A stretch of 64,000 bases of DNA from Candidatus Poribacteria bacterium (GCA_965218095.1 OZ244587.1:4765203-4829202), one strand, 5' to 3'; positions 7,461 to 60,037 are shown, numbered from the stretch's first letter. Notes: generated by a model from the letters alone, not told the origin. A program made the numbers and translations.

Positions 7461-7498
7461 CGATGATTTTGCCCTTGACCAAAAGGGCCGGTTCTGCT

Positions 7499-7595: not shown

Positions 7596-7603
7596 ATTTT
7601 TAT

Positions 7604-7632: not shown

Positions 7633-7691
7633 TAGTTTATTGTGATGGTAGTGTTATATACTCAATTAGAATAAAAATACAAGGAAATCAA

Positions 7692-7931: not shown

Positions 7932-8236
7932 GATTGTGGGAAATGCGTCTGGAGAAACCTAGTTTTTCGGCAAAACTGGGAATGGGGCAATCAATTACAT
8001 TCTTAAACAGACGAACCGCAAAAAAAGCAGGGCCTACATCCACCGCCAAGGATGGGTTCGGTCCTGCGCATCGTTATTATAGCATTCAACTCAAGATAGG
8101 TCAAATCCTTTTCAAAAGATTTTAACAAAAATGAGATTCGGCGAGATTTTTTTTGATTAGTTGCAGGTTTGTGCGACTGATCGTATGTTATCATGTTCTC
8201 GGTTACTGGAAAATCCGATGAAATGGAGGGTTTAGA

Positions 8237-18541: not shown

Positions 18542-18561
18542 GGCTGTCGGAGGAGAAACCG

Positions 18562-19066: not shown

Positions 19067-22000
19067 CGATCAATGATAAGAATCTCGATTACGAGATTGA
19101 AACGCAAATATCGTGAAAATGGCGGGGTTGTATGGGTGGACGATCAATGATAAGAATCTCGATTACGAGATTGAAACATGTCAACGAAACGGTACAACAA
19201 CTCGCCGATGATGCGATCAATGATAAGAATCTCGATTACGAGATTGAAACGTAAAAGGTGGGAGATGCCCCCAGCTGGGTTGCTGGGCGATCAATGATAA
19301 GAATCTCGATTACGAGATTGAAACTACATTAATAATGAGCCGCTCCGCGACTTTGGTGGTGACGATCAATGATAAGAATCTCGATTACGAGATTGAAACA
19401 AATATCATCGGGATGATCTACCAATTTATCCGCAATCGATCAATGATAAGAATCTCGATTACGAGATTGAAACCAACGCTCGGGTTGCGACATCGACACT
19501 CCCAAACCCTCGATCAATGATAAGAATCTCGATTACGAGATTGAAACGCATCAGTAATGATATACTCCGACGAAGCGAACCTGTCCGATCAATGATAAGA
19601 ATCTCGATTACGAGATTGAAACTACATTATGATAGCAATGGCAACCACAACGGCTATACGATCAATGATAAGAATCTCGATTACGAGATTGAAACTCACC
19701 GGTGCTAACGACATCCGACGGAATACCCGGCTCGATCAATGATAAGAATCTCGATTACGAGATTGAAACCAGGTGAGGGAATCGCTTTCAGATCGCGAGA
19801 TACGCACGATCAATGATAAGAATCTCGATTACGAGATTGAAACATAATCCTCAGCATCATACGCTTCAAACGGTTTAATCGATCAATGATAAGAATCTCG
19901 ATTACGAGATTGAAACGGAACGCCGGCGCTGCATACAGTGTTTAATCGCGCCTTCGATCAATGATAAGAATCTCGATTACGAGATTGAAACACTGCCATG
20001 CTTTCCAGAGAGTCATAGTGCGGTCGCCGATCAATGATAAGAATCTCGATTACGAGATTGAAACTGAGACAACCTGTACTTTTCAATCCTCCAGTGAACA
20101 CCGATCAATGATAAGAATCTCGATTACGAGATTGAAACGACAAAGAGCGGATCAGAACTCTCCTCAGTATCCCCGATCAATGATAAGAATCTCGATTACG
20201 AGATTGAAACGACAGCCTCCGAGAAGAAGCCCGACGACTCAACATCACCCCCGCGATCAATGATAAGAATCTCGATTACGAGATTGAAACCTGGGTGGAA
20301 CGGCGCAATGGGATAGCGACGAATTTCGACGATCAATGATAAGAATCTCGATTACGAGATTGAAACACATGGCATGGAAACTCGGGCTGATGGGAATCTG
20401 GGATCGATCAATGATAAGAATCTCGATTACGAGATTGAAACAAGTCCAAAATCGTCCCGTCCAGCAACAACACCTCTAAAACGATCAATGATAAGAATCT
20501 CGATTACGAGATTGAAACAGAGATTCGCTGGGAATTAGGCGCATCCTCATCGAGGCGATCAATGATAAGAATCTCGATTACGAGATTGAAACTACCACGA
20601 CCGCGAAGGGCGCCCCCGACAGTATCTTCCGATCAATGATAAGAATCTCGATTACGAGATTGAAACCAAGTACCACTTCGATGTTGCCACTCACCGTCGC
20701 GGTGTTCGATCAATGATAAGAATCTCGATTACGAGATTGAAACCAGCAAGTCAGGGTACGATTTGCGAGTCTGCCCGATGACGATCAATGATAAGAATCT
20801 CGATTACGAGATTGAAACAAAACGGTAGGACCAACAACGAAATTTGGACAGGCAGCTCGATCAATGATAAGAATCTCGATTACGAGATTGAAACTGTAAA
20901 CGATAATGACGATCTTGAAGTCGGCACACAATTCGATCAATGATAAGAATCTCGATTACGAGATTGAAACAGCTATAACCAAGACCGCATCCTGATTCCG
21001 ATGGAGATTCGATCAATGATAAGAATCTCGATTACGAGATTGAAACAAGTCCAAAATCGTCCCGTCCAGCAACAACACCTCTAAAACGATCAATGATAAG
21101 AATCTCGATTACGAGATTGAAACGACTGAGTTCTATCGAGAATACCCGTCAACGCCGGAGGACGATCAATGATAAGAATCTCGATTACGAGATTGAAACT
21201 CCCCGTCGTCGCCGCAGACAGCGCACCCGACGCCCCGATCAATGATAAGAATCTCGATTACGAGATTGAAACGCGAAACGTGCGATTTCTCTGCCGAAGC
21301 GGATGGAGATACGATCAATGATAAGAATCTCGATTACGAGATTGAAACCAGCGAATATCTTGGGACCCATCCTCTGCTGATCGTATCATCGATCAATGAT
21401 AAGAATCTCGATTACGAGATTGAAACGAAGGGCACACCATTGATGTACAATCGATAATCGAACTCGATCAATGATAAGAATCTCGATTACGAGATTGAAA
21501 CCACTGGGGCATCCATCAGTACCGATTGAGATATACGAATCGATCAATGATAAGAATCTCGATTACGAGATTGAAACTTGTGATCCACCTGCGCCCATCG
21601 CGCTATCTGCCTGTCGATCAATGATAAGAATCTCGATTACGAGATTGAAACACAGGCACGATTTCAGGAAAGACGGTCATCCCGTTTGACGATCAATGAT
21701 AAGAATCTCGATTACGAGATTGAAACGAGATTCAACAGATCCCGCGCTGCACCCCGCCGTCCCGACGATCAATGATAAGAATCTCGATTACGAGATTGAA
21801 ACTACCATGCCAGAAATAGCGGTTCAAAGTTGCTTTCGCGATCAATGATAAGAATCTCGATTACGAGATTGAAACACAGACGCATCATCGGTATCGGGGT
21901 CAACCACCGCTTCCGATCAATGATAAGAATCTCGATTACGAGATTGAAACTTCTATAATCCAAATAGTTCAAAAATACTCAGTGTTCGATCAATGATAAG

Positions 22001-23940
22001 AATCTCGATTACGAGATTGAAACCGTTGAAAGGTGGGAATATGGCAAAGATTCAATTAGGCGATCAATGATAAGAATCTCGATTACGAGATTGAAACAAC
22101 ATCATCAAACGGCAGGATAAATTCACCCGATGTTGCGATCAATGATAAGAATCTCGATTACGAGATTGAAACTCAAGGCATTTACTCCTTCGAGGGATGG
22201 CGGGCTGAGGAGCGATCAATGATAAGAATCTCGATTACGAGATTGAAACCAGTGGCTGCTTCGTTGCGCGGATACCACCGCTTGCGATCAATGATAAGAA
22301 TCTCGATTACGAGATTGAAACGCGGCGGTGAGTTACTTTCCCTTGTTCAATCCGGCTACCCGATCAATGATAAGAATCTCGATTACGAGATTGAAACCGG
22401 AACTGGATCAACTGACTGAGCAGGGTAAGCAGAACGATCAATGATAAGAATCTCGATTACGAGATTGAAACTAACGTCTCGCGTCTCATGTTCCGCGTCT
22501 GCCGGTGCGATCAATGATAAGAATCTCGATTACGAGATTGAAACTGGTGCGCAAGTGCTGGGTGCGCGTGCGGGTCGTGCCAAGCGATCAATGATAAGAA
22601 TCTCGATTACGAGATTGAAACAGCCGTTGGTATCACGTCTTTGTGGGTTTCGTCAACGATCAATGATAAGAATCTCGATTACGAGATTGAAACGAAACCA
22701 ATAATCGTGTACCATTTTTGATACGATTCGCCACGATCAATGATAAGAATCTCGATTACGAGATTGAAACTCTGAAGATTTCAGCGTTATCAATCAAATA
22801 CGCTTTACGATCAATGATAAGAATCTCGATTACGAGATTGAAACAGAAATGACTTCCCATTCGGAACGTGGCAAGTTTATACGATCAACGATAAGACACT
22901 CGATTGCGAGATTGAAACAAACCCAAACCAGAGGCATGGATAAAGTGTGGATAACGATCAACGATAAGAATCTCGATTACGAGATTGAAACATGAATGAA
23001 CACCACCAGAAGATTTGTTGATGGCTGTACGATCAACGATAAGAATCTCGATTACGAGATTGAAGCTGCTGAGCTCTCACCATGTGGAAGTCGGCGTGAA
23101 GCGATCAACGATAAGACACTCGATTACGAGATTGAAACTTCCCACACCTCTCGTGGCAGTGTCTGAGGTTCAGGGAACGATCAACGATAAGACACTCGAT
23201 TGCGAGATTGAAACGGGGGTGGTATTGTATTTGTTGCGTGAGTCCGTGTTTTCGATCAACGATAAGAATCTCGATTACGAGATTGAAACCCGCAGCCGGC
23301 GGAGCGGAGAATACAGCGCATTCAACGATCAATGATAAGAATCTCGATTACGAGATTGAAACTTATCAGACAGTACCACTTCAAGCCCATTTAATCTGCG
23401 ATCAACGATAAGAATCTCGATTACGAGATTGAAACAGCGGTGCAAACCGATTAAGGCGCCAGGCCTCGAACAACGATCAACGATAAGAATCTCAATTACG
23501 AGATTGAAACATGGTAGAGGGTAAGAAAGCTCACCAGATGGAGATCGCCGCCGATCAACGATAAGACACTCGATTGCGAGATTGAAACAGTTTCGATTTG
23601 ACTCCCATCAGTTTGACTCCTTTTTTTTGTGCATGCACAAGAAAATTCGCCGCACGATCAACGATAAGATTCTCGATTACGAGATTGAAACGTGGAAAAC
23701 AGATGAAATACAAAAAGCCATCGGAAACTCCCGATGCTTCTGTTGAAGTCGGCGTTGAAAAAGATGCTGTTGATGGATTCTCTTACGGTGTTCTGGAGCG
23801 AGTCACGGTATTGAGTCCATGCGGACCTCGGATCAGGGAATCGATACCTGTTGCCTCCCACGACGTAAGAAATGAAGCGCGAGTTGCGGCGGGGGAAACA
23901 GAACAACCTACGATAAGACTCTCGATTACGAGATTGAAAC
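19067..23940 (+). CRISPR. CRISPR array: about 65 copies of the 37-nt repeat CGATCAATGATAAGAATCTCGATTACGAGATTGAAAC, with spacers of about 34-38 nt
   Basis: Read directly. The repeat contains the hairpin AATCTCG-atta-CGAGATT followed by the ATTGAAAC 5'-handle. Repeats from about 22883 onward carry substitutions (CAACGAT, GACACTC, GATTGCG, GAAGC). The terminal relic repeat at 23909-23940 is preceded by an aberrant 217-bp interval. Confidence 0.97.
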
Positions 23941-49688: not shown

Positions 49689-50261
49689 TCACCCCTCATA
49701 AATGTCCTGAAACTGCTCTAACGCCGCCGCTAGATTCGCGGCAATCAGATCGCCAACATAATCGTCATCCACCGAGGTCGTGCCGTCATTGGCGATGTCA
49801 ATCCCATCGCCCTTGATGTTCCGTGTCGCTTGCGCTGCTATGGCGTCAAGTTTGCTTTCATCACTCGATGTGAACGGTCGGGACACCGCTATCGTCTTTG
49901 TGCCGTCGGTCTCCTCGGTAATCGTGATGCCCACGCCTTGGGCAATCGAATCGCCGCCGCTACTGCTCACCTGCGTCCACGCACTGCCGTCTGCCGATAT
50001 ATAAATCCCACCCGTGTCGCCCGTCCGAAAATAGATCGCCCGACGCCCCGACACCAGTAGGCTCTCCGCAGGGGCGTCATCACCTACCAAGATCAGATCC
50101 TCGCTCGTGAACTTGATCAGGTTGCCATACGTCATCCCCTTCAAGTCCGCAAGCGTGGCATCTCCACTGCTGGGCACCGCCGCCGGCAGCCGCACGTCGT
50201 CCAACTCCGACTCCGCAACCTCCGGCACCGCTGTGGTATCGATGATATTTCGTTCTGGCAT
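49689..50261 (-). CDS. Hypothetical protein (190 aa; Gly/Asp/Thr-rich C-terminal half)
   Basis: Coherent ORF convergent with trpG. No recognisable domain. Confidence 0.4.
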   Translation of the reverse strand: MPERNIIDTTAVPEVAESELDDVRLPAAVPSSGDATLADLKGMTYGNLIKFTSEDLILVGDDAPAESLLVSGRRAIYFRTGDTGGIYISADGSAWTQVSSSGGDSIAQGVGITITEETDGTKTIAVSRPFTSSDESKLDAIAAQATRNIKGDGIDIANDGTTSVDDDYVGDLIAANLAAALEQFQDIYEG

Positions 50262-50280
50262 CGTCTTACATTCCCGTAAC

Positions 50281-50336
50281 TGTGCACAAAAAAAAGGCGC
50301 AAACTCCCGGTATCATGCCTGATACCGGGGCTTTGC
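50281..50336 (-). terminator. Rho-independent terminator, minus-strand sense (nested hairpin followed by a T-run)
   Basis: Minus strand reads GGGCGCAAAGCCCCGGTATCAGGCATGATACCGGGAGTTTGCGCC then TTTTTTTTG. Confidence 0.5.
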
Positions 50337-50492
50337 GCCCTCAAATCCCTGTTATTACGCAGCGCAAACAGTATACCCAAAAGTATAACCGTTTGTCAAT
50401 CTGTTTTATCGTCCTGTTTTATCGTCTAATCACCATTGCCCTCCATATCAAATAGACCCGGTATCCCATTCAGGATCAAGCCCCAAGCGATT

Positions 50493-50882
50493 TCATCTGG
50501 TAAGTCTTAGCAAAGCTATTTCATATTCTAAACCATCTATTTCAGATCCTAAATCATCTATTTCAGATCCTAAACTAGATATTTCAGATTCTAAATCATC
50601 TATCTCAGATCCTAAATCATCTATCTTAGAAATCAGGGACCCGGACCTATATGTTGGCTGGGTACCACCAATTCTTTTATTCAGCTTGTCGATTCTTGAA
50701 TTCAATGTGTCAACACTACTGGTAAGACTTTGGATAGCCCTGCGTAACTGATGATCAGACGCTGGACTATAACTTACGTCGATTGCAAAAACAACAACTA
50801 CAGCGGTTATCAATAACCCAATCCATTTGATCAGTTTTATGCGTCCCATTTTTATCATCTCCTTATCAGACATTTTACTCAA
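50493..50882 (-). CDS. Small membrane-anchored coiled-coil protein with tandem D-D-L-G-S-E-I heptad repeats
   Basis: N-terminal TM helix. The DNA shows 21-bp tandem repeats at 50520-50630 (atctatttcagatcctaaatc...). AT-rich. Confidence 0.5.
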   Translation of the reverse strand: MSKMSDKEMIKMGRIKLIKWIGLLITAVVVVFAIDVSYSPASDHQLRRAIQSLTSSVDTLNSRIDKLNKRIGGTQPTYRSGSLISKIDDLGSEIDDLESEISSLGSEIDDLGSEIDGLEYEIALLRLTR

Positions 50883-51377
50883 TATAATTTACCTGATACT
50901 TATCCAGAAATAAATCAAGGTGTTTTCTTGCTTCCAATTCATTTGTGCCCCTGTATATTGGATATCCTTGGCATTTACCATCAGGAAAGCGCAGAATTCC
51001 ACTGATAATCCAATAACCAGAATCCTATATCAATTTAACAGCCTCTAAATGCTCATCATCCACAAAAGTACTACCTCCCTTAAACTCCCTTAAAACCAGT
51101 AAGAGTTATTTTAGCACACCTCCTTTCAGATTGCCCCGGATCTGATCACGACTGAGATCTAGCGTTTTTTTGTTTGACAAGACTTCGTTGGGTTTGCTAC
51201 AATATGCAATGCATGTGGCTACCCCTAGCTGCCACACCAGGGATAGCCTCAAGCCGAACAACCAAGTTCGTTAGGAGCGCCCCCATTGGTTGAGCGACTT
51301 TGGTATATTATAACGCATTTCTACCCTAAAACAGAAAAAAAATATAGAAATTGCCATAATATCACCGAAATATACCG

Positions 51378-51428
51378 AAAAAAAGGCGGGATCGCTCAAA
51401 TTCTGACGCGATCCCGCCTTTTTTTTGT
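51378..51428. terminator. Bidirectional rho-independent terminator located where the HsdM homology stops
   Basis: AAAAAAA then GGCGGGATCGC-tcaaattctga-GCGATCCCGCC then TTTTTTTTG. Confidence 0.6.
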
Positions 51429-51831
51429 CGCTGTCGTAGATATCCCCTTTCACATCGGTATCCAGACCGCTCCATGTTTCATCATTGATGAGTTGAATGA
51501 TTTGCTTCAGTTTGACGGGATCTTGGATCCTGTTTTGGGATTTTCTGAAGATTACACCTAGCGTACCGCTCTCCAGAGCCAACGTGTCGAGGATATCGCG
51601 GTAGTGTGTTTCAAGGGCAGCGCCCTCCTTGGCGACTAAACCTTCCCAGTCTTTCCCTGCGGGGACAACGGGGTCCTTGTTGTATGGCGGTTTGGTCTGC
51701 TCGTCCGCCATTTTCAGAAATAGGAGATAGGTCAACTGTTCCACATAGTCGCCGTAGCTGATCCCATCATCACGAAGGACGTTACAATAATTCCACAGTT
51801 TTTGCACAATAGCTGATGAATCGTTTGGCAT
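51425..51831 (-). pseudogene. hsdM: Type I RM methyltransferase HsdM: N-terminal domain only (truncated)
   Basis: LWNYCNVLRDDGISYGDYVEQLTYLLFLKMADEQ...TWSGLDTDVKGDIYD is the HsdM N-domain. The catalytic domain (xxFYTP, NPPF) is absent. The ORF runs on through the terminator into AT-rich DNA. Confidence 0.55.
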
Positions 51832-51871
51832 TTTCGGGATGGTTCTCCTGCGGTTGTATGGGAGGGCACGT

Positions 51872-52255
51872 TTATACCGGCGGCATTATTACCAATTGAC
51901 TGGCAAGAGCCAGCTTTCTTGCGATGCGATCGCGCGCGATCTTGTCTGCCGGGAACGGTGTGATATTCGCATGTAGTTCATGAGGGATGATGTCTGGAAT
52001 AACTGTAAGATGATTCTCATAAACGACCTCTGCCAAAAGATCTGCCCTTGCTCTCAGTGTTCTTTCGCCTTGGACGTTTTCCCGCCCAATCACCCACACT
52101 TCGCTCTCAGAGAGGGATGAGATACGAAACACAGACAGATCCTCGCTATATAGAGGTGGCATGAATGCCGCATATTTGACAACCTTTTTTTCTACGGAAA
52201 AATGTCTTTTAGAAAAAATAAAGCGGGTAAGTTTCTCGCCTCCTGAAAAATTCAT
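51872..52255 (-). CDS. Hypothetical protein (127 aa) within the RM island
   Basis: ORF coherent with its neighbours. No known motif. Confidence 0.35.
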   Translation of the reverse strand: MNFSGGEKLTRFIFSKRHFSVEKKVVKYAAFMPPLYSEDLSVFRISSLSESEVWVIGRENVQGERTLRARADLLAEVVYENHLTVIPDIIPHELHANITPFPADKIARDRIARKLALASQLVIMPPV

Positions 52256-52265
52256 ATCATGTCCT

Positions 52266-52688
52266 TTATTGAAAGAGGCGGTTTAACGTTGTAAGAAAAC
52301 CCGGTAGAAGGGCAAAGTCCGACAAGGCACAAATTCCTGCAATCTCCCGCTTATCACTAAAAAAGGCACCGTAGATGACGTGACCGTCACCGTATAGGCT
52401 CATCGTCGCTATGCCATCCCCTGGTCGCCATTCCAACCCAATCCCTCCATCTTCCAACCACATCATCTCAGGCATTGGAATATTACGCTGCATCTGCTCC
52501 AGCAAAGAAAGTGTTTCATTGTACGCCGATTCAGGGACAGGCTCAACTTCGTTATCCAACTCACAGGCTTCCTCAACCTCCTCGCGGATATCCTCTAGCT
52601 CTCGTTGCACCTGTTTCCTAAACAGTGCTTCATCTACAGGAGGCCGAACGAAATCAAGTTTCTTTTTTGGGGTTTCCATAATGTTCAC
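52266..52688 (-). CDS. Hypothetical protein (140 aa) within the RM island
   Basis: ORF with an acidic N-terminal half. No known motif. Confidence 0.35.
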   Translation of the reverse strand: MNIMETPKKKLDFVRPPVDEALFRKQVQRELEDIREEVEEACELDNEVEPVPESAYNETLSLLEQMQRNIPMPEMMWLEDGGIGLEWRPGDGIATMSLYGDGHVIYGAFFSDKREIAGICALSDFALLPGFLTTLNRLFQ

Positions 52689-52950
52689 CTATCCGATTTT
52701 GAGATACGTTTCTTAATGAGGTATCTCCGAAATCTGATTCATCGTTATCCCCTCGTAGCTCTGCCAGCAGTACGTCTCCGATATAATCATCGTGGCGTTC
52801 GCCTACGTCTGTTACCTCACACTCCAGCGTCCCTGCCAACGCCAGGAGGGGATCGGTGCCCTGCGTTTCCTGGGCTGGATCTTCGTTTTCTGGAATATTA
52901 TCTAAGGCGATTTCGGCAGATAAATCTGTCCACTCTCCTCGTGCCCTCAT
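52654..52950 (-). CDS. Hypothetical acidic protein (98 aa) within the RM island
   Basis: The ORF overlaps its downstream neighbour by 35 nt. No known motif. Confidence 0.3.
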   Translation of the reverse strand: MRARGEWTDLSAEIALDNIPENEDPAQETQGTDPLLALAGTLECEVTDVGERHDDYIGDVLLAELRGDNDESDFGDTSLRNVSQNRIGEHYGNPKKET

Positions 52951-53015
52951 ACCTAATATCTCCCAATTAAAATTAAGACTTTAACAAGCAATTGGCAATC
53001 AAATTACACTTAATT

Positions 53016-53804
53016 TTAACCTAAGTTTTCACTAAATACAATCTCTTTCTGTACCTTGATCCGTTCAAGCAAGACACTAGCAGGTTCATCGTTTGGGTCT
53101 TGCGACACCAATTTTCCAGAGAAGGCTTTTTTGAGAATTGACTGACGCAATTGCTCGGCGCGTTTCAGTTCTGCCGTAATAGTTTTTTCCACTTTGTCGG
53201 CAGCAAAGAGATGACGTTCGACTTCTTCAACAAGAATCTGCTGCTCTTTTTCCGGTGGCATAGGGACTGCAAGGAGTCTGAGTTTTGTGCCGTTTACATT
53301 TGCCTGTCCTGCCTGTTGAGACACAACCGATAAAATCCAATCTTTACCATACACGGAGTTAATATAGTACGCTACAATCATCGAATCAATATGTGGATTA
53401 AACCGTACCCTAATAAGATATGAAGCGAACGAACACGGGTTGGGTATTCCTGTATAAACTGCCGTTTTGCCAACTAATTCACGGCTATTTGTGCGATTGA
53501 ATAGCAAATCCCCTTTATTCAGCAACAACTCTGGAAATTCATCGTGTTCTTTCGGGAGATATTTCAGATTATTCAGAACGATTTTACCGTCAACAATATT
53601 CCCCATTCTCAGCACAGGTATATCGTTTGAATCCTCGCTTGTTTTTTTTGATGAGCCGTATTGGATTTTTGTCAAGAGTTGTTCAACAGTTGCCCAAGTC
53701 CATCCCTTTGGTAACTTTGGCAGCTCATTCGTATCAGGTGCAACAGGTTCTTTATACTTCGCCTTCCATTTATCATCTTTGGGTATTTCTCCCTTTGCCT
53801 GCAT
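53016..53804 (-). CDS. hsdS: Type I RM specificity subunit HsdS, C-terminal half (TRD2 + conserved helix)
   Basis: TRD followed by the conserved ...LRQSILKKAFSGKL... In the same frame as the upstream half, separated by a single TAG. Confidence 0.65.
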   Translation of the reverse strand: MQAKGEIPKDDKWKAKYKEPVAPDTNELPKLPKGWTWATVEQLLTKIQYGSSKKTSEDSNDIPVLRMGNIVDGKIVLNNLKYLPKEHDEFPELLLNKGDLLFNRTNSRELVGKTAVYTGIPNPCSFASYLIRVRFNPHIDSMIVAYYINSVYGKDWILSVVSQQAGQANVNGTKLRLLAVPMPPEKEQQILVEEVERHLFAADKVEKTITAELKRAEQLRQSILKKAFSGKLVSQDPNDEPASVLLERIKVQKEIVFSENLG

Positions 53805-53825
53805 CTGCTCAAGCTGCTCTGCCTC

Positions 53826-54512
53826 CTACTTCTCCCGCCGCGCTTTGAGAATACGCTCAAGTAGTACAGAAGCAGGTTCAATCCCGTCCTGATGCTCCGC
53901 CCGCCACGCTTCAGTCAGCTTTCCTTCAAAGGCAGCTTTCAGGACGGATTGGCGATACTGCTTGAGTTGGGATTGTGCCTTGTGGAGTGCGTTAATGCCC
54001 GCATCAAGTTTGGCGAGGAGTTCTTCGATTTTGGTGACGATGCGGTATTGTTCGGGGAGTGGGGGTAGAGGGATTTCAAAGGTTTTGAGTTGGTTCCCCG
54101 TTATCGCATTAAAAGTTGTTCCAGCACCTCTGCCCGCGAGTTCATCTTCATAGGCACGCATCAAATAGAAGATGAAAAACGGCTCAATACCACTTAACCC
54201 ACGGATTGCTGCAAGACCTCTACCTACGCAGGATTTTTCAGGGCATAAGTTCGTTGGACCAACAGGTGCGCGAACAGAAATAAATACGTCCCCTTTTTCA
54301 GCGATTTTTTTCGGTGCGGCACACCACTTTTGTGGCGTTGGGTAGATCTCACCAAATTCAAGTTTACCTTGATAAAAAGGAAGTCCTTTTCCGTCAGTAT
54401 TATAGGTTGATGATGGTGGCGATTGCCCCAATATAATTTTGCTGATTTCCTCTAATCTCGTCCACACCCACCCATCGGGCAGCTCAGACAAACCTACATC
54501 CGTTTCGCTCAT
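53826..54512 (-). CDS. hsdS: Type I RM specificity subunit HsdS, N-terminal half (TRD1 + conserved helix), ending at an in-frame TAG
   Basis: ...LPEQYRIVTKIEELLAKLDAGINALHKAQSQLKQYRQSVLKAAFEGKL... 4-nt overlap with the fic start. Confidence 0.65.
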   Translation of the reverse strand: MSETDVGLSELPDGWVWTRLEEISKIILGQSPPSSTYNTDGKGLPFYQGKLEFGEIYPTPQKWCAAPKKIAEKGDVFISVRAPVGPTNLCPEKSCVGRGLAAIRGLSGIEPFFIFYLMRAYEDELAGRGAGTTFNAITGNQLKTFEIPLPPLPEQYRIVTKIEELLAKLDAGINALHKAQSQLKQYRQSVLKAAFEGKLTEAWRAEHQDGIEPASVLLERILKARREK

Positions 54513-55699
54513 ATCACATGCTTCCTTTGGTTCATTGATTTTGTTCTTTCTGTCATGATTATATTGAGTATTTCATCTGCAACAAACAGACGGTTTCGCC
54601 GCCATCCGGTTATTTCCCTGAGTGTGCCTTTTTCGATAAGATAATCCACTCCCCGCTGAACGGTGGGAAAGGGCATCTCCCAAGCCTTCGATAATTCTGA
54701 AATTGAGATAATAGGACTTGCAAACAGATAGTCAATCAAGCGGTTTACAACCTTCAGCACCCTTCGACCGGCTGCAATTGCTCTGTATCGGTTTTGTAAG
54801 TCAAGCAATTTTTGAACCGTCAAAAGGGCATCTTCTGACTGTTGACGAATCCCGTTTAAGAAAAATGTGAGCCAAGCTTTCCAGTCCCCTTTTTGGCTTA
54901 CATTCAACAGCAATTTATAATATTCATCTCTATGCTTCTCAAAAAAATCGGAAAGATAAAGGAGGGGCTGCGATAACAACTCCTTTTCCAATAACATAAA
55001 CGTAATAAGAAGCCTGCCGATCCTTCCATTGCCATCAAGAAACGGGTGAATCGCCTCAAACTGATAATGAACCAGAGCGCATTGAATCAATGCCGGTTCC
55101 CTTGCGTTGGAATGGATGTATTTTTCCAAGTCTGAAAAACAACCTTTCATCTCTGGGTCCGGCGGAGGAACATAGGTTGCGTCCATCAAAGTACACCCGG
55201 GGCTACCAATCCAGTTTTGGCTCGTCCGCATCAAACCCGGGGTTGCACGTTCACCCCGCACCCCCTTCATTAGAATTCCGTGTATTTCACAGGTCAGCCG
55301 AGAACTTATCGGCAACTCTCGCAACCGTTTGATTCCATGTTCCATGGCTCTAACATAGTTGAAGATCTCTTTTACATCGGATGCAGGGGACGGCTCCGTT
55401 TCATCTGCTTCAAAGAGAAAGAGATCATCTAAACCGGATTGGGTGTTTTCAATTCTCGAACTCATTACGGCTTCACGCCGAATAAAAGGGCCAATCAACA
55501 GATGCGGATTAGGAAGCAGTTGCCCTGCACCGGATAACTCTCCAAGTTTGCTGTCTGCTTTTGATAAAAGATTAGCTAACTCCCAATCCACTTCGATTTT
55601 TGATGGGAGTGGATTCGGCACATAAGCCGAATATGGGGGACGGCTTATCGTGCGAATACATTTACCAGCGGTTGAATTTTTGAAATCTTCCGGATTCAT
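54509..55699 (-). CDS. fic: Fic-family protein (AMPylation motif) with a C-terminal winged-HTH
   Basis: HPFLDGNGRIGR Fic motif. C-terminal wHTH-like region. Confidence 0.85.
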   Translation of the reverse strand: MNPEDFKNSTAGKCIRTISRPPYSAYVPNPLPSKIEVDWELANLLSKADSKLGELSGAGQLLPNPHLLIGPFIRREAVMSSRIENTQSGLDDLFLFEADETEPSPASDVKEIFNYVRAMEHGIKRLRELPISSRLTCEIHGILMKGVRGERATPGLMRTSQNWIGSPGCTLMDATYVPPPDPEMKGCFSDLEKYIHSNAREPALIQCALVHYQFEAIHPFLDGNGRIGRLLITFMLLEKELLSQPLLYLSDFFEKHRDEYYKLLLNVSQKGDWKAWLTFFLNGIRQQSEDALLTVQKLLDLQNRYRAIAAGRRVLKVVNRLIDYLFASPIISISELSKAWEMPFPTVQRGVDYLIEKGTLREITGWRRNRLFVADEILNIIMTERTKSMNQRKHVI

Positions 55700-55722
55700 T
55701 TTTTATCACTTTACGTTAATAA

Positions 55723-55890
55723 GATACAGTATTATTAACGTTTTTATGGGTTTGTGTTAATAAGGTTTAGCGTTATTAATGTTTTTTGCGAATTCGTGTT
55801 AATAAGATCTAGTGTCATTAACATTCTTGTGAATCAACGTTAATAAAATGTAGTATTATTAACGTTTTTTCGAGTTACTGTTAAAGCGTT
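55723..55890. promoter_or_regulatory. Four tandem 41-bp units, each with the palindrome GTTAATAA-N9-TTATTAAC; operator-like array upstream of fic
   Basis: Units read directly: acGTTAATAAgatacagtaTTATTAAC, gtGTTAATAAggtttagcgTTATTAAt, gtGTTAATAAgatctagtgTCATTAAC, GTTAATAAaatgtagtaTTATTAAC. Confidence 0.6.
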
Positions 55891-55929
55891 TGATAACAGC
55901 AGGGATTTTATCCAATTGAGGCATCTACC

Positions 55930-58830
55930 TCACGCCGCCAACTGCTCATTCAACGCCTCAAGAATTGTATCCAACGCATCCCCAAACAACTGATACACCT
56001 TAATCGCCCCGCCCTTTGCCTGAAACGGTATGTTCTCAAAATCATCCATTTCAATGCGTAGCGATGTGGCGATATGGTCTTTTATCATCTCCAACCACGC
56101 TATCTGTTCTTGTGAAAATTCCTTCTCCTGATTGGTGAGCCATTCTTGGAACTGTTGATCGACGGTCTCTTTGTAAGGCTCAAGCGTTGCAGTATCCCCA
56201 ATTGCAAAGCGGACTAACGAAATGATGTCGGTCAATAGCTTGTGCGGGCCCGCTCCCTTGACTTTCGATTGGTCTAACCGCTCGTACGCCTGCCATAGCT
56301 CCTCTTTCGTGAAGCGATATGGCGGCTGTTCGATCGCTTGGGCGAGTTGCTGAACTTGTTGATATGTGAGATGCCGCTGCCCGTACGGTTTGCTGTAGAT
56401 AATCTGGATCGCTGTCAGTTCATCCTTGTTCTCTTCGATAAACTGCTTGAAACTTGCCACGCGCTGCTCCGCCCGCGCCTTTGCCTCACGGTCAAATCCC
56501 GAAGAGATGACGCTATCTTGGCTCACGGTGTCTATCGTCTGTTCCTGCTGCCTTTTGAGGTCAATGAGTGTGTTGCGTACGTCTGGGTTATCAAAGGGCT
56601 TACACGCCTCTGTGATAAGCCAATTCGTTTTCACCCGAATTTGCTCCGGCGTTAGGGATTCCGCCGGTGATTCGAGCAATAGCCGAATGTGCTCCGGCAC
56701 TAAGCCTTCAGTAGGTGATTCAGTCAATGCGATGGGTTGTTGATTATTGTCCGGATCCATCGCATCAAACAGGGCGTGGATCATACGCTGCAAGGAGATA
56801 CCCCCTGACACTTCGGCGATTTGTTTCCGGGCATCTTCTCCAATTTCACGGTCAAGACGTGCGAGCCTACCCGCCAACGAGGTCAAGGTATCGGTTTCTC
56901 GGTTGCCGAGCACCACAGACTCAAGCAACTTATCAAACGGCACACTCTGTTTTCGCTCAAGTGGTCGGGAATCGGTTTTGTCATTCTCACAAACGCCCAC
57001 TGCATCGACAATCACGAAATGGGTTTTGTGATGGGTGTCGGGAGTGACCGCGTGCAAATCTGTTGATGAAATCGTGCGCGTACCTCTGCCCTTCATCTGC
57101 TCAAAATAGACCTGCGATCTGATGTTTCGCATGAAGATGATACACTCTAACGGCTTGATATCCGTGCCTGTGGCGACCATGTCCACCGTTATGACGATGC
57201 GCGGATTGTATGAAATGCGGAAGCTAGTGAGCAGGTTTGCCGGTGTATCGCCCGTTGTGCGGTATGTAATCTTTTTACAGAAGTCGTTACCTTTCCCGAA
57301 CTCCTGACGGACGATATGTAGTATATCTTCAGCGTGGGAATCGTCTTTGGCAAAGATCAGTGTTTTCGGGACATGCTTTCTGCCGGGAAAAATCTCTGTG
57401 AACAGATTATCTCGGAAGGTTTGAATCACCTTGCGGATCTGGTCGTCTGCTACCACATCACGGTCAAGTTGATTCGCGCTGTACTCCATCTCCTCATCCA
57501 ACAGTTCCCATCGGATTTTGCGGGTAAGCTTGTCCCGTTTGTCAACGTAAAAGCCGGGAGGAATCTTGCTGCCTTCCTCCGTAATCTCTGTCTTGATACG
57601 ATACACCTCATACCCCACATTCACGCCATCGGCGACCGCTCGCTCGTGGGGATACTCTGTGACCAAGTTCTGATTGAAGAATCCGAGCGTCTGCTTTGAG
57701 GGTGTGGCAGTGAGACCAACGATAAAGGCGTCAAAATATTCCAGTACGGGCTTCCATCGGTAGTAAATCGAGCGATGGCACTCGTCGGTGATGATAAAGT
57801 CAAAGGTCGAAATCGGAATCTTGGGATTGTATACCACCTCCGCAGCGGGTTGATTCGTCGAATCAAGGTTGAGCAGCGATTCACTCTCGCCCTGTTCATC
57901 AAAAACCGATTCTCCCTTTAGCATCGAATACAACCGCTGAATCGTGGTGATACAGACCTTGCTCACCTTGTCAATCCGGTTGGTGGTGAGATGTTGCACG
58001 TTGTAAAGTTCGGTGAATTTCCTGCCATCGTCCGGTGTGGTATATTGCTGAAATTCTTTGTGCGTCTGTCTTCCGAGATTGCTGCGATCAACGAGAAAAA
58101 GTATCCTTTTGGCATTTGCAAACTTGATTAGCCGATAGGCGAAATTCACGGCGGTGTATGTTTTCCCGCTGCCGGTTGCCATCTGAATCAGCGCGCGAGG
58201 GTAATCTTTGGCAAATGACTCCTCTAGATTGGTGATTGCTTCAATTTGACAGTCTCGCAAACCCTGCTTATCCAGTACAGGTGGTGTCTGGAGGTTGTAT
58301 CGTAATGTAAGCGGCTGCTGAATCCACTGTAACAGGGTTTCCGGTTTGTGGAAGGCGAAAACGGGTCGGGAGCGGGAGTCCGGATCGCGTAGATCGCGGA
58401 AGAAGGTTTCAACCCCCGTGCTCTCATAACCAAAAGGTAAAGGTTTTCGATAGCATCGAAGGGTTACTGGAATCCCGGTGAGATACTTCTCAGTTTGTTC
58501 AGAGACCCCGCTGAGGGTTGTGCCCTCCGGTTTGGCTTCGATTACCCCGACCGCTCTTCTGTTGATAAATAGCAGGTAGTCTGTGGGCCCGGCGGACATA
58601 GGAAATTCACGTACCGCGACACCCAGCGATTCACTAGGATTCATCTGTTCATGATCTTGAATCGCCCAGCCCGCTGTGGTGAGCAGTTGGTCGATGTTCT
58701 GTCGTGCTTTTTCCTCGGGTTTCATATCTTCTTTATCTGTGGTGAGGTGAGATTGTCGTGCAAACGTCAGCGTTATTTTACCTGAATCTACTGCTGATGT
58801 CAAATGTCGCGTCCGTCCACTCGCATCCAA
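55930..58830 (-). CDS. hsdR: Type I restriction endonuclease subunit HsdR
   Basis: Helicase motifs (MATGSGKTYTA, DECHRS). HsdR N-terminal nuclease region. About 930-966 aa. The true start may be the internal Met near 58725. Confidence 0.85.
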   Translation of the reverse strand: MDASGRTRHLTSAVDSGKITLTFARQSHLTTDKEDMKPEEKARQNIDQLLTTAGWAIQDHEQMNPSESLGVAVREFPMSAGPTDYLLFINRRAVGVIEAKPEGTTLSGVSEQTEKYLTGIPVTLRCYRKPLPFGYESTGVETFFRDLRDPDSRSRPVFAFHKPETLLQWIQQPLTLRYNLQTPPVLDKQGLRDCQIEAITNLEESFAKDYPRALIQMATGSGKTYTAVNFAYRLIKFANAKRILFLVDRSNLGRQTHKEFQQYTTPDDGRKFTELYNVQHLTTNRIDKVSKVCITTIQRLYSMLKGESVFDEQGESESLLNLDSTNQPAAEVVYNPKIPISTFDFIITDECHRSIYYRWKPVLEYFDAFIVGLTATPSKQTLGFFNQNLVTEYPHERAVADGVNVGYEVYRIKTEITEEGSKIPPGFYVDKRDKLTRKIRWELLDEEMEYSANQLDRDVVADDQIRKVIQTFRDNLFTEIFPGRKHVPKTLIFAKDDSHAEDILHIVRQEFGKGNDFCKKITYRTTGDTPANLLTSFRISYNPRIVITVDMVATGTDIKPLECIIFMRNIRSQVYFEQMKGRGTRTISSTDLHAVTPDTHHKTHFVIVDAVGVCENDKTDSRPLERKQSVPFDKLLESVVLGNRETDTLTSLAGRLARLDREIGEDARKQIAEVSGGISLQRMIHALFDAMDPDNNQQPIALTESPTEGLVPEHIRLLLESPAESLTPEQIRVKTNWLITEACKPFDNPDVRNTLIDLKRQQEQTIDTVSQDSVISSGFDREAKARAEQRVASFKQFIEENKDELTAIQIIYSKPYGQRHLTYQQVQQLAQAIEQPPYRFTKEELWQAYERLDQSKVKGAGPHKLLTDIISLVRFAIGDTATLEPYKETVDQQFQEWLTNQEKEFSQEQIAWLEMIKDHIATSLRIEMDDFENIPFQAKGGAIKVYQLFGDALDTILEALNEQLAA

Positions 58831-58974
58831 TGGTAAGGATGATTCCGCAAAAATAGCTTGCCTAAGTCAACTCATTGGGCTATAATATTTTGATAAGGCA
58901 GGGAAGTCCAACCGGTAGTTCCGCAGTTAAGTTCAGTGGATCCCCGTCTTGTCAAGTTATAACTTTATACTTTA

Positions 58975-59616
58975 GTGGGGTGCTACCAAGCGATGAGCAG
59001 CGAAGATTATTTTGATCAGGTTGCGGATCAATGGGACAGCCTCCAGGCGAGTTTCTATTCGGAGAAAGTTAGAGACCGGGCGCTTGCTACCGCCGCCGTG
59101 CGAGCGGGCGGCATTGCTGCTGATATTGGCTGCGGTAGCGGCTTCATCACTGAAGGGTTGATCCATGCCGGACTGCATGTGGTTGCCGTCGATCAGTCCG
59201 AAGCCATGCTGGCAGAAATGAAAAGGAAGTTCGCCGACATTGTCGACATTGACTACCGCCGTGGAGAGGCAGAGCAGTTACCGATTTCCGACGACTCTGT
59301 GGATTACGCCTTCGCCAACATGTATCTCCATCACGTCGAAAGTCCACTGATGGCAATCAAGGAAATGGCGCGGATTTTGAAGCCAGGCGGGGCATTGGTG
59401 ATTACAGATCTGGATGATCACACCTTTGAATTTCTGAGAGATGAACATTATGATCGCTGGCTGGGTTTCGACAGACAGCAGGTTCGACAATGGTTTATGG
59501 AAGCAGGACTCCGGCGTGTGGCTGTGGACTGTGTGGGTGAACATTGCTGCGTTCAATCCAATGGTGAGAGCCAGTCTGCCAGTATCAACATATTCGTGGC
59601 GTCAGGTGAGAAATGA
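58975..59616 (+). CDS. Class I SAM-dependent methyltransferase (type 11)
   Basis: Motif I AADIGCGSGFIT. The start is possibly the Met at 58993. Confidence 0.75.
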   Translation: MGCYQAMSSEDYFDQVADQWDSLQASFYSEKVRDRALATAAVRAGGIAADIGCGSGFITEGLIHAGLHVVAVDQSEAMLAEMKRKFADIVDIDYRRGEAEQLPISDDSVDYAFANMYLHHVESPLMAIKEMARILKPGGALVITDLDDHTFEFLRDEHYDRWLGFDRQQVRQWFMEAGLRRVAVDCVGEHCCVQSNGESQSASINIFVASGEK

Positions 59617-60037
59617 ACGTGAGGCAAAGCCATGCGTATCATACTGAGTCAAAAGGTACGCTGGAAGCGCTTATCGAACTAAGAAATCAAGCAGAGGAAA
59701 ACAGACAGAGAAATCTGTAAACTTTGATTAGCACGTTCAAGAGATACGACTGCGCGTCCGGCGTTATCAACTCAAGCAACGCGCGTAGCAGCCCCACCGC
59801 CCTTCACGCCGTCGCCCGCGGGATGCAGACGAACATCAGGGCTAGTTCAGTTGGCGATGAAACGTCGGGAACAGTGGTTGAAAGATGGGCGTTTGGAAAA
59901 ACTGGATCCAAGACACTACCGTCTACATCTCGATTGAAAATCTGTCGGTTGGTTTGAACAACCGTGAGCCCCAACGTATGTCCGTGCTTGTTGGGTATCG
60001 TGCATCAACCTGACCTACCGATTATTCCACAATCCGG

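What the first reader, a model, noticed from the sequence alone, without database searches (positions are those of the whole stretch)
55723..55890. Four tandem palindromic operator-like units (GTTAATAA-N9-TTATTAAC) in the fic upstream region
Between hsdR and fic, a 41-bp unit is repeated four times. Each carries the same 8-bp inverted half-sites spaced by 9 bp; three are perfect and one has a single mismatch. This is the geometry of multiple binding sites for a dimeric HTH protein. The Fic protein itself ends in a winged-HTH domain, so autoregulation of fic through these sites is plausible. The sites also sit at the hsdR 3' end.
Basis: seen in the sequence. Interest (0 to 1): 0.55.

Follow-up and report, generated by a model that had tools for sequence, protein, structure and literature searches.

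The report
Fic gene's own operator array
Four evenly spaced palindromic DNA sites just upstream of a SoFic-type Fic gene (an AMP-transferring toxin used in phage defence) are most likely where the Fic protein's own DNA-binding tail binds to shut its gene off, which is an expected kind of control for this family, seen here as an unusually clear multi-site array.

Summary
Four 25-bp units (GTTAATAA-N9-TTATTAAC) lie at 55715-55863, spaced 41/42/41 bp, between the hsdR stop and the fic start. The motif occurs nowhere else in the 64-kb window.

The gene is a SoFic-family class II Fic with a C-terminal winged HTH. Two homologues are documented to bind their own promoters: CccR (footprint and autorepression) and SoFic (dimer-dependent binding). 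Comparative data support the same role here.
- The same 8-N9-8 palindrome, with a conserved AATAA/TTATT core, sits upstream of fic homologues in many phyla, whatever genes flank them.
- In close relatives the arms are conserved while the spacers and linkers drift, and the copy number varies from 2 to 4.
- Across 71 distant loci, repeats upstream of fic peak sharply at 41 bp, with smaller peaks at about 31 and 72 bp. Linkers therefore change by whole helical turns, which is a property of DNA, not RNA.
- Operator similarity tracks the wHTH and not the rest of the protein.

Verdict: an autoregulatory, helically phased operator array. It is a new member of a known kind. The family-wide operator layout appears undescribed. 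No binding was measured for this protein.

The parts
55715..55739 (-). Operator unit 1 (proximal), perfect GTTAATAA-N9-TTATTAAC. It ends 15 nt before the fic ATG.
   Evidence: The position (-40 to -16 from the ATG) and the arms are conserved in close relatives.
55756..55780 (-). Operator unit 2, one arm mismatch (coding strand ATTAATAA..TTATTAAC).
55798..55822 (-). Operator unit 3, one arm mismatch (coding strand GTTAATGA..TTATTAAC).
55839..55863 (-). Operator unit 4 (distal), perfect. Arms extend to 11 bp (AACGTTAATAA/TTATTAACGTT).
55864..55917 (-). Conserved leader of about 50 bp upstream of the array. It includes a degenerate fifth unit (55880-55897) whose near arm is in phase with unit 4.
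   Evidence: The alignment shows the leader retained in L081 and L204-L208 whatever lies upstream. Its function is unknown.
55731..55760 (-). Promoter-like match TTAACA-N18-AATAAT, built from the right arm of unit 2 and the left arm of unit 1. A second copy lies at 55855-55884.
   Evidence: 10 of 12 matches. This is a consensus match only: 3 matches were found against 2.1 expected in shuffles. The transcription start site is unmapped.
55721..55726 (-). Alternative -10 candidate TATCTT inside unit 1 (end of the N9 spacer plus the start of the right arm).
   Evidence: In L204, L205 and L208 a consensus TTGACA lies exactly 17 nt upstream of the same hexamer. In the window the matching -35 is poor. 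This is inference.
54509..55699 (-). fic: a SoFic-family class II Fic, 396 aa. It carries Fic_N, the Fic core (HPFLDGNGRIGR, residues 218-229) and the inhibitory motif SSRIEN (residues 80-85).
54545..54802 (-). C-terminal winged HTH of Fic (about residues 300-385), the proposed reader of the operators. Presumed recognition helix PFPTVQRGVDYLIEKG (343-358, assigned from sequence pattern only); wing REITGWRRNRLFVA.
   Evidence: Aligned to the SoFic wHTH. HTH_13 scores E=1.5e-4, below Pfam's cut-off. The segment co-varies with operator sequence.
53826..54512 (-). hsdS fragment. Its ATG overlaps the fic stop codon (ATGA), so it is probably co-transcribed and under the same operators.
55930..58830 (-). 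hsdR (EcoEI-type C-terminus), the upstream neighbour. It is not part of the regulatory module.
   Evidence: The array and fic occur without hsdR in L082 and L205-L208.

Best explanation
The four 25-bp palindromes are operators for the winged-HTH domain of the Fic protein encoded immediately downstream.

Proposed mechanism: Fic dimers each occupy one GTTAATAA-N9-TTATTAAC unit. Because the units repeat every 41 bp, about four helical turns, the bound dimers line up on one face of the DNA. They can then bind cooperatively and cover the whole promoter region up to 15 nt before the start codon. This represses transcription of fic, and of the translationally coupled hsdS fragment. The result is tight negative feedback on a potentially toxic AMP-transferase.

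Shown here:
- the sites, their phasing and their uniqueness in the window;
- their conservation upstream of fic homologues across phyla;
- co-variation of the operator with the wHTH.

Taken from the literature on homologues: DNA binding to the gene's own promoter, dependence on the dimer, and repression.

Inferred for this locus: that this Fic binds these sites, that there is one dimer per unit, that binding is cooperative, and that the effect is repression.
For: 1. Real and non-random: 4 matches against 0.02 expected, with none elsewhere in 64 kb even at 3 mismatches.

2. The protein is SoFic-like. PADLOC SoFic scores 1.3e-121. SoFic structures in the PDB match at E about 1e-45 over residues 23-383, including the wHTH. 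The Fic motif and inhibitory helix are present.

3. Experimental precedent exists in the family. CccR has a footprint on palindromic boxes near its -35 and -10, shows 3.3-fold derepression in the deletion mutant, and requires the dimer. The SoFic dimer binds the proximal 100 bp of its own upstream region sequence-specifically.

4. The element travels with fic.
- 8-N9-8 palindromes with the core nnnAATAA/TTATTnnn lie 15-140 bp upstream of fic in Poribacteria, Chloroflexota, Nitrospirota-related, Verrucomicrobiota, Elusimicrobiota, Alphaproteobacteria and other MAGs.
- ATAA-N9-TTAT is about 100-fold enriched in the 300 bp upstream: 22 hits in 23 kb against 9 in 945 kb.
- Flanking genes differ from locus to locus.

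5. Phylogenetic footprint in relatives with 82-97% identical Fic. Arms carry 1.65-1.80 bits per position, against 0.75 in the spacer and 0.74-0.87 in the flanks. Symmetric double changes keep the palindrome (GTTAATGA..TCATTAAC; GTTAATAG..CTATTAAC). Copy number varies from 2 to 4 by whole units.

6. Helical phasing across the family. In 71 loci with 45-58% identical Fic, 8-mer direct repeats upstream of fic peak at 41 bp (52 against a background of about 5). Secondary peaks fall at 30-31 and 71-72 bp. Exact 41-bp repeats occur in 35 of 74 upstream windows (the 71 plus the three Poribacteria loci) against 11 of 238 controls (p=1.5e-16). Linkers of 6, 16 and 26-27 bp differ by one helical turn.

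7. Operator similarity correlates with wHTH similarity after controlling for the rest of the protein. Partial r=0.295, p=2e-4. The reverse test gives r=-0.07, p=0.77. An unbiased k-mer version gives r=0.134, p=7e-4.

8. Geometry. CccR's recognition helices are 70 A apart, about 20 bp of B-DNA. That falls within one 25-bp unit, whose half-site centres are 17 bp apart. This point is inference.
Against: - There are no binding or expression data for this protein or organism.
- The promoter and transcription start site are unmapped. The promoter-like hits are not above the shuffle expectation.
- CccR's operator geometry (10-N26-10) differs. SoFic's best-bound fragment carries a different motif (ATGTCGAT).
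- CbFic2, another wHTH-Fic, binds DNA without apparent specificity.
- Distant Fic proteins with the identical GTTAATAA operator (L101, L122) do not share the Poribacteria recognition-helix sequence. No simple recognition code is therefore visible.
- The co-variation tests rest on manual operator calls or on k-mer sharing that could be affected by base composition.
- Half-site centres 17 bp apart (about 1.6 turns) do not face the same side. This requires a wide, clamp-like dimer.
Confidence: 0.8

Rival explanations
1. The palindromes act as RNA hairpins in the hsdR 3' UTR or the fic 5' leader, serving as terminators, attenuators or stability or processing elements rather than as DNA operators.
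For: Each unit can form an 8-11-bp stem with a 9-nt loop. The 233-nt intergenic RNA folds better than shuffled sequences (z=-3.9). Symmetric compensatory changes occur in relatives. On the plus strand each stem is followed by a T-run.
Against: - The stems are AU-rich and uneven in stability (-0.7, -4.7, -7.6 and -9.5 kcal/mol). The global fold pairs different units rather than forming four hairpins.
- The T-runs are on the non-coding strand. On the mRNA strand an A-run precedes the stem, and no terminator-like site was found.
- There is no Rfam match.
- The arm sequence itself is conserved across phyla (AATAA core), not merely the pairing.
- Single-arm transitions show no strand bias: 5 are G:U-compatible on the coding strand and 4 on the other strand (read).
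- Unit spacing is quantised in helical turns (31, 41, 52 bp), which has no meaning for RNA.
Confidence: 0.05
2. The sites are operators for some other trans-acting protein, such as a host global regulator, an R-M controller, or the HsdM/HsdS complex sensing methylation, and not for Fic.
For: The array lies inside a type I R-M locus, and fic is translationally coupled to hsdS. AT-rich palindromes are bound by many regulators. S. oneidensis carries two different repeat sets upstream of SoFic, so a second factor is conceivable there.
Against: - Across about 80 loci, fic is the only gene constantly next to the palindromes. Neighbours vary in identity and orientation.
- The array persists where all hsd genes are missing.
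- No C-protein-like small HTH gene is present.
- The outer half-site triplet changes between clades (GTT, TGC, GTC, GAA, GAT, TTC) while the position upstream of fic stays the same. This points to a co-inherited reader.
- Operator similarity tracks the Fic wHTH specifically.
Confidence: 0.07
3. The array is a neutral or selfish tandem repeat (a minisatellite, REP or MITE-like element, or a degenerate CRISPR-like array) with no regulatory role.
For: Copy number changes by whole units between near-identical genes: 4 units in the window against 2 in L081. Such changes are typical of slippage or unequal recombination.
Against: - There are no other copies in the window.
- In relatives the units are always upstream of fic, at a fixed distance from the ATG.
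- The arms are under much stronger constraint than the spacers and linkers.
- The architecture is conserved across phyla where the DNA is otherwise unalignable.
- The 16-nt 'spacers' are too short and too similar to one another for a CRISPR array, and no cas genes adjoin the array.
Confidence: 0.03

Closest known systems
CccR and its PcccR operator (Yersinia pseudotuberculosis wHTH-Fic toxin; PMC9755527)
   Same: It is a class II Fic with Fic_N and a C-terminal wHTH. The dimer binds AT-rich inverted repeats (AGATAATCAT...) near the -35 and -10 of its own promoter and represses it. Its half-site shares the GATAAT/ATAA flavour seen across this family.
   Different: CccR's footprint is a single 46-nt site with 10-bp boxes separated by 26 bp. 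Here the sites are 8-N9-8 units repeated four times at 41 bp. CccR is a T6SS effector. This gene sits in a decaying type I R-M locus. Sequence relatedness is distant, if PDB 7cb8 (E=1e-38) is CccR, which was not verified.
SoFic (Shewanella oneidensis SO_4266), the founding member of the SoFic anti-phage defence family
   Same: It is the best structural and sequence match. The dimeric protein binds its own upstream 100 bp sequence-specifically. Its upstream region also shows repeats phased at about 40-41 bp: ATGTCGAT at -108, -69 and -28, and TGTATAGA-N11-TCTATACA at -255 and -215.
   Different: The half-site sequence and palindrome geometry differ. No operator has been defined and no in vivo regulation has been tested for SoFic. 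The alignment to the window protein is distant (E about 1e-45).
AbiEi and type II/IV toxin-antitoxin operators
   Same: A wHTH protein binds cooperatively to paired inverted repeats in its own promoter, with DNA bending and negative autoregulation of a toxic module. This is my own knowledge plus reference 40 cited in PMC9755527.
   Different: In those systems the regulator is a separate antitoxin. Here the DNA-binding domain is fused to the toxin-like enzyme, and there are four phased sites rather than two.
C-protein and C-box control of restriction-modification systems
   Same: An autoregulated HTH gene with tandem palindromic operators sits upstream of an R-M gene and sets its expression. 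This is my own knowledge.
   Different: C proteins are small Xre-type HTH proteins in type II systems, with defined C-box consensus sequences. None is present here. The array also occurs without any R-M genes.

Membership tests
SoFic-like class II Fic with C-terminal wHTH (the trans factor) | Fic active-site motif HxFx(D/E)GNGRxxR | tested here: met
   HPFLDGNGRIGR at residues 218-229. Pfam Fic scores 9.6e-18.
SoFic-like class II Fic with C-terminal wHTH (the trans factor) | N-terminal inhibitory helix motif (S/T)xxxE(G/N) within a Fic_N (DUF4172) domain | tested here: met
   SSRIEN at residues 80-85. Pfam Fic_N scores 9.2e-29.
SoFic-like class II Fic with C-terminal wHTH (the trans factor) | [quoted passage not shown] | tested here: met
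   Residues 324-383 align to the SoFic wHTH (306-363) in crystal-structure sequences. HTH_13 scores E=1.5e-4, 22.1 bits, below the 26.1 cut-off. No structure was predicted here.
SoFic-like class II Fic with C-terminal wHTH (the trans factor) | Match to the family model used for defence-system annotation | tested here: met
   PADLOC SoFic scores 1.3e-121 over model positions 5-358 of 361. Anti-phage activity itself was not tested.
wHTH-Fic autoregulatory operator (CccR/SoFic type) | Inverted-repeat sites in the gene's own upstream region | tested here: met
   Four units lie between -164 and -16 from the ATG. They are conserved upstream of homologues.
wHTH-Fic autoregulatory operator (CccR/SoFic type) | Sites overlap the -35 and -10 of the promoter | tested here: inconclusive
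   Promoter-like hexamers are formed by the arms. In L204, L205 and L208 there is a TTGACA-N17-TATCTT candidate. The hits are not above chance and the transcription start site is unknown.
wHTH-Fic autoregulatory operator (CccR/SoFic type) | Specific binding by the Fic dimer through its wHTH, and repression | not testable with these tools
   Only indirect support is available: operator-wHTH co-variation and the literature on homologues.
wHTH-Fic autoregulatory operator (CccR/SoFic type) | CccR-like geometry (10-bp boxes separated by 26 bp) | tested here: not met
   Here the geometry is 8-N9-8 units with 16-bp linkers. It works like the CccR operator but is not the same layout.
Intrinsic (Rho-independent) terminator | G+C-rich stem followed by a U-run on the transcribed strand | tested here: not met
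   No terminator-like sites were found. The stems are AU-rich, and the T-runs are on the non-coding strand.
Dispersed repeat (REP, MITE) or CRISPR array | Many copies dispersed in the genome, or unique spacers of at least about 25 nt with cas genes nearby | tested here: not met
   There are no other copies in 64 kb. The linkers are 16 nt and similar to one another. In relatives the units are found only upstream of fic. A whole-genome test was not possible.
R-M controller (C-protein and C-box) | A small Xre-type C gene downstream of the boxes | tested here: not met
   No such ORF or domain is present in the locus.
Known RNA families (Rfam 15) | Covariance-model match | tested here: not met
   There are no matches at E<=1 in 50000-60000.

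The most novel reading that the evidence does not exclude
The helically phased array may be more than a simple repressor site. It could be a nucleoprotein platform that holds up to four Fic dimers in cis and couples DNA occupancy to the enzyme's state. [quoted passage not shown] Events that displace Fic from the array or load it onto the array would then switch the AMP-transferase as well as its transcription. Candidate events are phage infection, changes in supercoiling, and read-through from hsdR. A weaker version of this reading is better supported: a universal 'operator grammar' for SoFic-family defence genes. That grammar is a palindrome of about 25 bp with an AATAA core, and linkers quantised at 6, 16 or 26 bp. 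It has not been described before and it predicts the binding sites of the whole family.
Probability: 0.12. Interest if true: 0.7.

Novelty: new member of a known kind. Interest (0 to 1): 0.4.

Why it matters
SoFic-type Fic proteins are widespread single-gene anti-phage and toxin modules, and their regulation is only starting to be studied. One operator has been footprinted (CccR), and one promoter fragment has been shown to bind (SoFic).

This locus, together with the comparison across about 90 loci, gives a concrete and testable operator model for the family:
- a 25-bp palindrome with a conserved AATAA/TTATT core and clade-specific outer bases;
- repeats at whole helical turns (31, 41 or 52 bp);
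- placement directly against the start codon;
- copy number that changes rapidly, from 2 to 4 units.

The model gives experimenters the oligonucleotides to use for EMSA, footprinting or structural work. It suggests cooperative, same-face binding of several dimers. It also shows that fic plus its array is an autonomous module that outlives the R-M genes around it.

For genome annotation, it explains an eye-catching repeat as ordinary cis-regulation rather than a new element.

Tried and rejected
- **Rfam scan of 50-60 kb:** nothing found.
- **Terminator scan:** none found. The promoter scan gave hits that are not above shuffle expectation, so the promoter is left unassigned.
- **Exact look-up of the window Fic in the contig index:** not on record. 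I used 82-97% identical relatives instead.
- **Unbiased exact-pattern scan of metagenome contigs:** The 80 stored loci were mostly low-GC contigs carrying single matches and no adjacent fic, which I take to be chance hits. Only 2 of the 80 lay next to a SoFic-like gene. It therefore could not measure how often the motif occurs away from fic. L085, with 12 matches, is an unrelated AT-rich tandem repeat.
- **Simple recognition code:** I looked for a match between the presumed recognition-helix residues and the half-site triplet. Classes track clades, but convergent GTTAATAA users (L101, L122) do not share the helix sequence. Only the statistical co-variation tests were kept.
- **Inverted-repeat distance histogram:** broad, at 12-26 bp, because nested arms are counted at several distances. 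It is not informative about exact geometry.
- **RNA-hairpin reading:** considered and rejected on the stability, strand and phasing arguments.
- **hsdR-related function:** rejected, because the array occurs without hsdR.
- **Literature searches for Fic within hsd loci or in Poribacteria:** they found no description of this element.
- **Structure prediction:** not run. It would give a monomer only and could not address dimer-DNA geometry.

Full report
**1. The observation**

The intergenic region between hsdR and fic holds four matches to GTTAATAA-N9-TTATTAAC. hsdR is at 55930-58830 (minus strand, 966 aa). fic is at 54509-55699 (minus strand, 396 aa).

| Unit | Coordinates | Arm mismatches |
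|---|---|---|
| 1 (proximal) | 55715-55739 | 0 |
| 2 | 55756-55780 | 1 |
| 3 | 55798-55822 | 1 |
| 4 (distal) | 55839-55863 | 0 |

Start-to-start spacing is 41, 42 and 41 bp. TRF independently reports a 41-bp period with 4.1 copies. Dinucleotide-preserving shuffles give 0.02 matches. Relaxing to three mismatches adds no site anywhere in the 64 kb. All six exact GTTAATAA octamers in the window lie within the array.

Beyond unit 4 there is only a degenerate unit at 55880-55897. Its near arm is in phase, but its spacer is collapsed.

On the coding (minus) strand, every unit except unit 3 is preceded by an A-tract ending in C (AAAAAC). Unit 1 ends 15 nt before the fic ATG.

**2. The genes**

- Pfam assigns Fic_N plus Fic to the 396-aa protein, and EcoEI-type HsdR domains to the upstream gene.
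- Two Methylase_S fragments lie downstream. Further down there is only a 186-aa HsdM N-terminal fragment.
- The fic stop codon overlaps the first hsdS ATG (ATGA), so the two are probably co-expressed.
- The Fic carries the catalytic motif HPFLDGNGRIGR and the class II inhibitory motif SSRIEN.
- It matches the PADLOC SoFic model at 1.3e-121.
- It aligns to SoFic crystal-structure sequences over residues 23-383, which includes the SoFic winged HTH.
- The C-terminal 91 residues hit Pfam HTH_13 just below threshold.

**3. What is known for the family**

- **CccR** is a wHTH-Fic of Yersinia pseudotuberculosis. It represses its own promoter by binding as a dimer, through its C-terminal HTH, to inverted 10-bp boxes (AGATAATCAT-N26-...) near the -35 and -10. 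Its recognition helices are 70 A apart (PMC9755527).
- **SoFic** is dimeric. The dimer, but not a monomeric mutant, binds sequence-specifically to the 100 bp upstream of its own gene. Regulation in vivo was not tested (bioRxiv 10.64898/2026.07.09.737422). The same preprint shows that SoFic AMPylates EF-Tu.
- **CbFic2** binds DNA with no evident specificity (PMC10628234).
- SoFic was reported as a stand-alone anti-phage defence gene (bioRxiv 10.1101/2022.05.11.491447). An E. coli homologue is toxic and is neutralised by a small downstream protein (PMC12249575). No such small gene is present here.

**4. Does the element travel with fic?**

The closest genomes are Candidatus Poribacteria MAGs, with 78-83% identical Fic. 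More than 120 database clusters are 82-97% identical. The window is therefore probably from a Poribacteria genome (Poribacteria are sponge-associated bacteria); this is an inference.

In 12 close relatives the array is always present, and its proximal unit is always at -38 to -41 from the start codon.

| Units | Loci |
|---|---|
| 4 | window, L082, L083 |
| 3 | L001 (one unit has an 8-nt spacer) |
| 2 | L081 (Fic 97% identical), L002, L003, L204-L208 |

Whole units are therefore gained or lost.

Over 20 aligned units the arms carry 1.65-1.80 bits per position. The N9 spacer carries 0.75 and the flanks 0.74-0.87. The AAAAC tract before each unit is also conserved. Symmetric double substitutions preserve the palindrome. 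Single-arm transitions are split 5 to 4 between the two strands (read).

Genomic context shows that fic plus the array is an autonomous module. In L082 and L205-L208 there is no hsdR or hsdS at all. The array and a conserved leader of about 50 bp are still there, at the same chromosomal site beside trpG and trpE.

**5. Beyond Poribacteria**

Among 77 loci with 45-58% identical Fic from many phyla, palindromes of the same form sit 15-140 bp upstream of fic.

| Left arm / right arm | Loci |
|---|---|
| TGCAATAA / TTATTGCA | L004, L005, L043 |
| GTCAATAA / TTATTGAC | L014, L025, L060 |
| GCCAATAA / TTATTGGC | L031 |
| CGAAAATA / TATTTTCG | L044, L045, L056, L066, L072, L073, L077 |
| GATAATAA / TTATTATC | L036, L062, L067 |
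| TTCAATTA / TAATTGAA | L013, L024, L034 |

Further variants occur in other loci.

The core ATAA-N9-TTAT occurs 22 times in the 23 kb immediately upstream of fic, against 9 times in the remaining 945 kb. The genes flanking fic differ in identity and orientation from locus to locus.

Two of the 80 stored hits lie 20-40 bp upstream of SoFic-like genes that are only 44-48% identical.

**6. Phasing**

I ran an assumption-free test on the 250 bp upstream of fic in the 71 distant loci. It builds a histogram of distances between directly repeated 8-mers, allowing one mismatch.

- The histogram has a sharp peak at 41 bp: 52 events against a background of about 5.
- A shoulder appears at 40 bp.
- Secondary peaks fall at 30-31 bp and 71-72 bp.
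- Control windows from the same loci show only codon periodicity.
- With the three Poribacteria loci included, 35 of 74 upstream windows contain an exact 41-bp repeat, against 11 of 238 controls (Fisher p=1.5e-16).

Linkers between units are 6, 16 or 26-27 bp, giving periods of 31, 41 and 51-52 bp. These differ by one helical turn.

The S. oneidensis SoFic upstream sequence, taken from that preprint's Table S2, shows the same habit. ATGTCGAT lies at -108, -69 and -28. TGTATAGA-N11-TCTATACA lies at -255 and -215.

Quantisation in helical turns is a property of double-stranded DNA bound on one face. It argues for cooperative protein binding and against an RNA-level role.

**7. Who binds?**

fic is the only gene always found beside the sites. 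The outer bases of the half-site change between clades while its position is kept. This implies a co-inherited reader.

Operator classes track the sequence classes of the wHTH presumed recognition helix, but this is confounded by phylogeny. To separate the two I used partial Mantel tests.

| Test | Variable tested against operator/upstream similarity | Controlling for | Partial r | p |
|---|---|---|---|---|
| Manual half-site calls | wHTH + wing (residues 338-376) | residues 30-295 | 0.295 | 2e-4 |
| Manual half-site calls | residues 30-295 | wHTH + wing | -0.07 | 0.77 |
| 7-mer sharing between upstream regions | wHTH + wing | rest of protein | 0.134 | 7e-4 |
| 7-mer sharing between upstream regions | rest of protein | wHTH + wing | 0.048 | 0.11 |

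The wHTH is encoded at the far end of the gene from the operators. Linkage alone would therefore favour the opposite result.

No simple residue-to-base code emerged. L101 and L122 use the identical GTTAATAA operator with different helix sequences.

**8. Mechanism**

The array fills the space from 66 bp after the hsdR stop to 15 nt before the fic ATG. Any fic promoter must therefore overlap it.

There are two candidate promoters.
- TTAACA-N18-AATAAT is formed by the right arm of one unit and the left arm of the next.
- TATCTT lies inside unit 1. In L204, L205 and L208 it sits 17 nt downstream of a consensus TTGACA carried by the extra 10-11 bp of their longer linker.

Neither is proven. Either way the proximal unit covers the -10 and start region. 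As with CccR, this predicts repression by occlusion.

The 70-A separation of CccR's recognition helices corresponds to about 20 bp. This fits one dimer per 25-bp unit (inference). Four in-phase units, plus phased A-tracts that may bend the DNA, would allow cooperative and switch-like repression of a potentially toxic EF-Tu AMPylase. The coupled hsdS fragment would be repressed with it.

No terminator separates hsdR from the array. Bound Fic might therefore also block read-through, which is speculation.

**9. Rivals**

- **RNA hairpins.** The stems are weak and uneven (-0.7 to -9.5 kcal/mol). The full-length fold pairs different units with each other. The T-runs are on the wrong strand. There is no Rfam family. 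The arm sequence, not just the pairing, is conserved. The phasing is helical.
- **Another regulator, or R-M sensing.** This is contradicted by the variable neighbourhoods, by arrays without hsd genes, and by the wHTH co-variation.
- **Neutral or selfish repeat.** This is contradicted by the motif's uniqueness in the window, its fixed position, the arm-specific constraint, and its conservation across phyla.

**10. Comparison and novelty**

Functionally this is the CccR/SoFic type of autoregulation, so the kind is known. It is not the same layout as the CccR operator: 8-N9-8 in a 41-bp array, against 10-N26-10.

I found no description of the family-wide operator grammar derived here in the searchable literature. 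I file the finding as a new member of a known kind, with a modest, useful generalisation.

Interest is moderate. A specialist would not be surprised by autoregulation. They would get precise, testable sites and a phasing rule.

**11. Limits**

- Nothing here measures binding, repression or the transcription start site.
- The complete source genome was not available, so I could not look for further sites.
- The operator calls used were manual.

Noticed in passing
window 19141-22849: A long CRISPR-like array with a 37-nt repeat (CGATCAATGATAAGAATCTCGATTACGAGATTGAAAC) and a period of about 74-76 bp. TRF splits it into many overlapping rows.
   Followed up: no
window 18195-18542: A 78-bp tandem repeat, 4.5 copies, 98% identical. 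Its unit contains GAGATTGAAAC, the 3' end of the neighbouring CRISPR repeat. It could be a duplicated repeat-spacer unit or a leader-proximal anomaly.
   Followed up: no
window 51271-54512: The type I R-M locus around fic looks decayed. hsdM is reduced to a 186-aa N-terminal fragment (51271-51831). hsdS is split into two ORFs (53826-54512 and 53016-53804). Two ORFs with no Pfam match (only a weak PADLOC hit for the 140-aa one) lie between them (52266-52688 and 51872-52255). In L081 hsdR is also split. fic itself stays intact and is 82-97% conserved.
   Followed up: partly
window 55864-55917; also L081, L204-L208 upstream of their arrays: A leader of about 50 bp directly upstream of the array is conserved, whether or not hsdR precedes it (coding strand: aTTGGATAa..TCTTTGATGTTACCAAACGyTTTAACgcgAACtCGcAAAAAAC). 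It contains a degenerate, spacer-collapsed unit whose near arm is in phase. Its function is unknown, and it could hold the real promoter.
   Followed up: partly
L204, L205, L208 (about -55 to -50 from the fic ATG): Where the two units are 51-52 bp apart instead of 41, the extra 10-11 bp carry a consensus -35 (cTTGACAaaa). It sits 17 nt upstream of TATCTT inside the proximal unit. This is a neat promoter-operator interdigitation that is absent from the window's 41-bp version.
   Followed up: partly
S. oneidensis SoFic upstream region (Table S2 of bioRxiv 10.64898/2026.07.09.737422): Two distinct repeat sets are phased at about 40-41 bp. TGTATAGA-N11-TCTATACA lies at -255 and -215; the second copy is cut by the authors' F3/F2 fragment boundary. 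ATGTCGAT lies at -108, -69 and -28, with inverted copies at -138 and -58. Which set SoFic binds was not resolved in that study.
   Followed up: partly
L082, L083 downstream of fic: In some Poribacteria relatives fic is followed by a large Schlafen/AlbA_2 plus HATPase_c_4 gene instead of hsdS. This is a different putative defence partner at the same site.
   Followed up: no
L085 (metagenome contig Ga0272448_1000492, 24% GC), 5429-9558: Twelve exact matches to the palindrome fall inside a highly repetitive AT-rich tandem region (GTTAATAAnnTnAAnnGGTTATTAAC...). It is unrelated to fic. It shows that single exact matches to this AT-rich motif occur by chance or through other repeats in low-GC genomes.
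   Followed up: partly
window 50493-50882: A 129-aa coiled-coil ORF containing a 21-bp tandem repeat (50516-50624, 5.2 copies; peptide repeat DDLGSEI). It lies where the missing part of hsdM would be expected.
   Followed up: no
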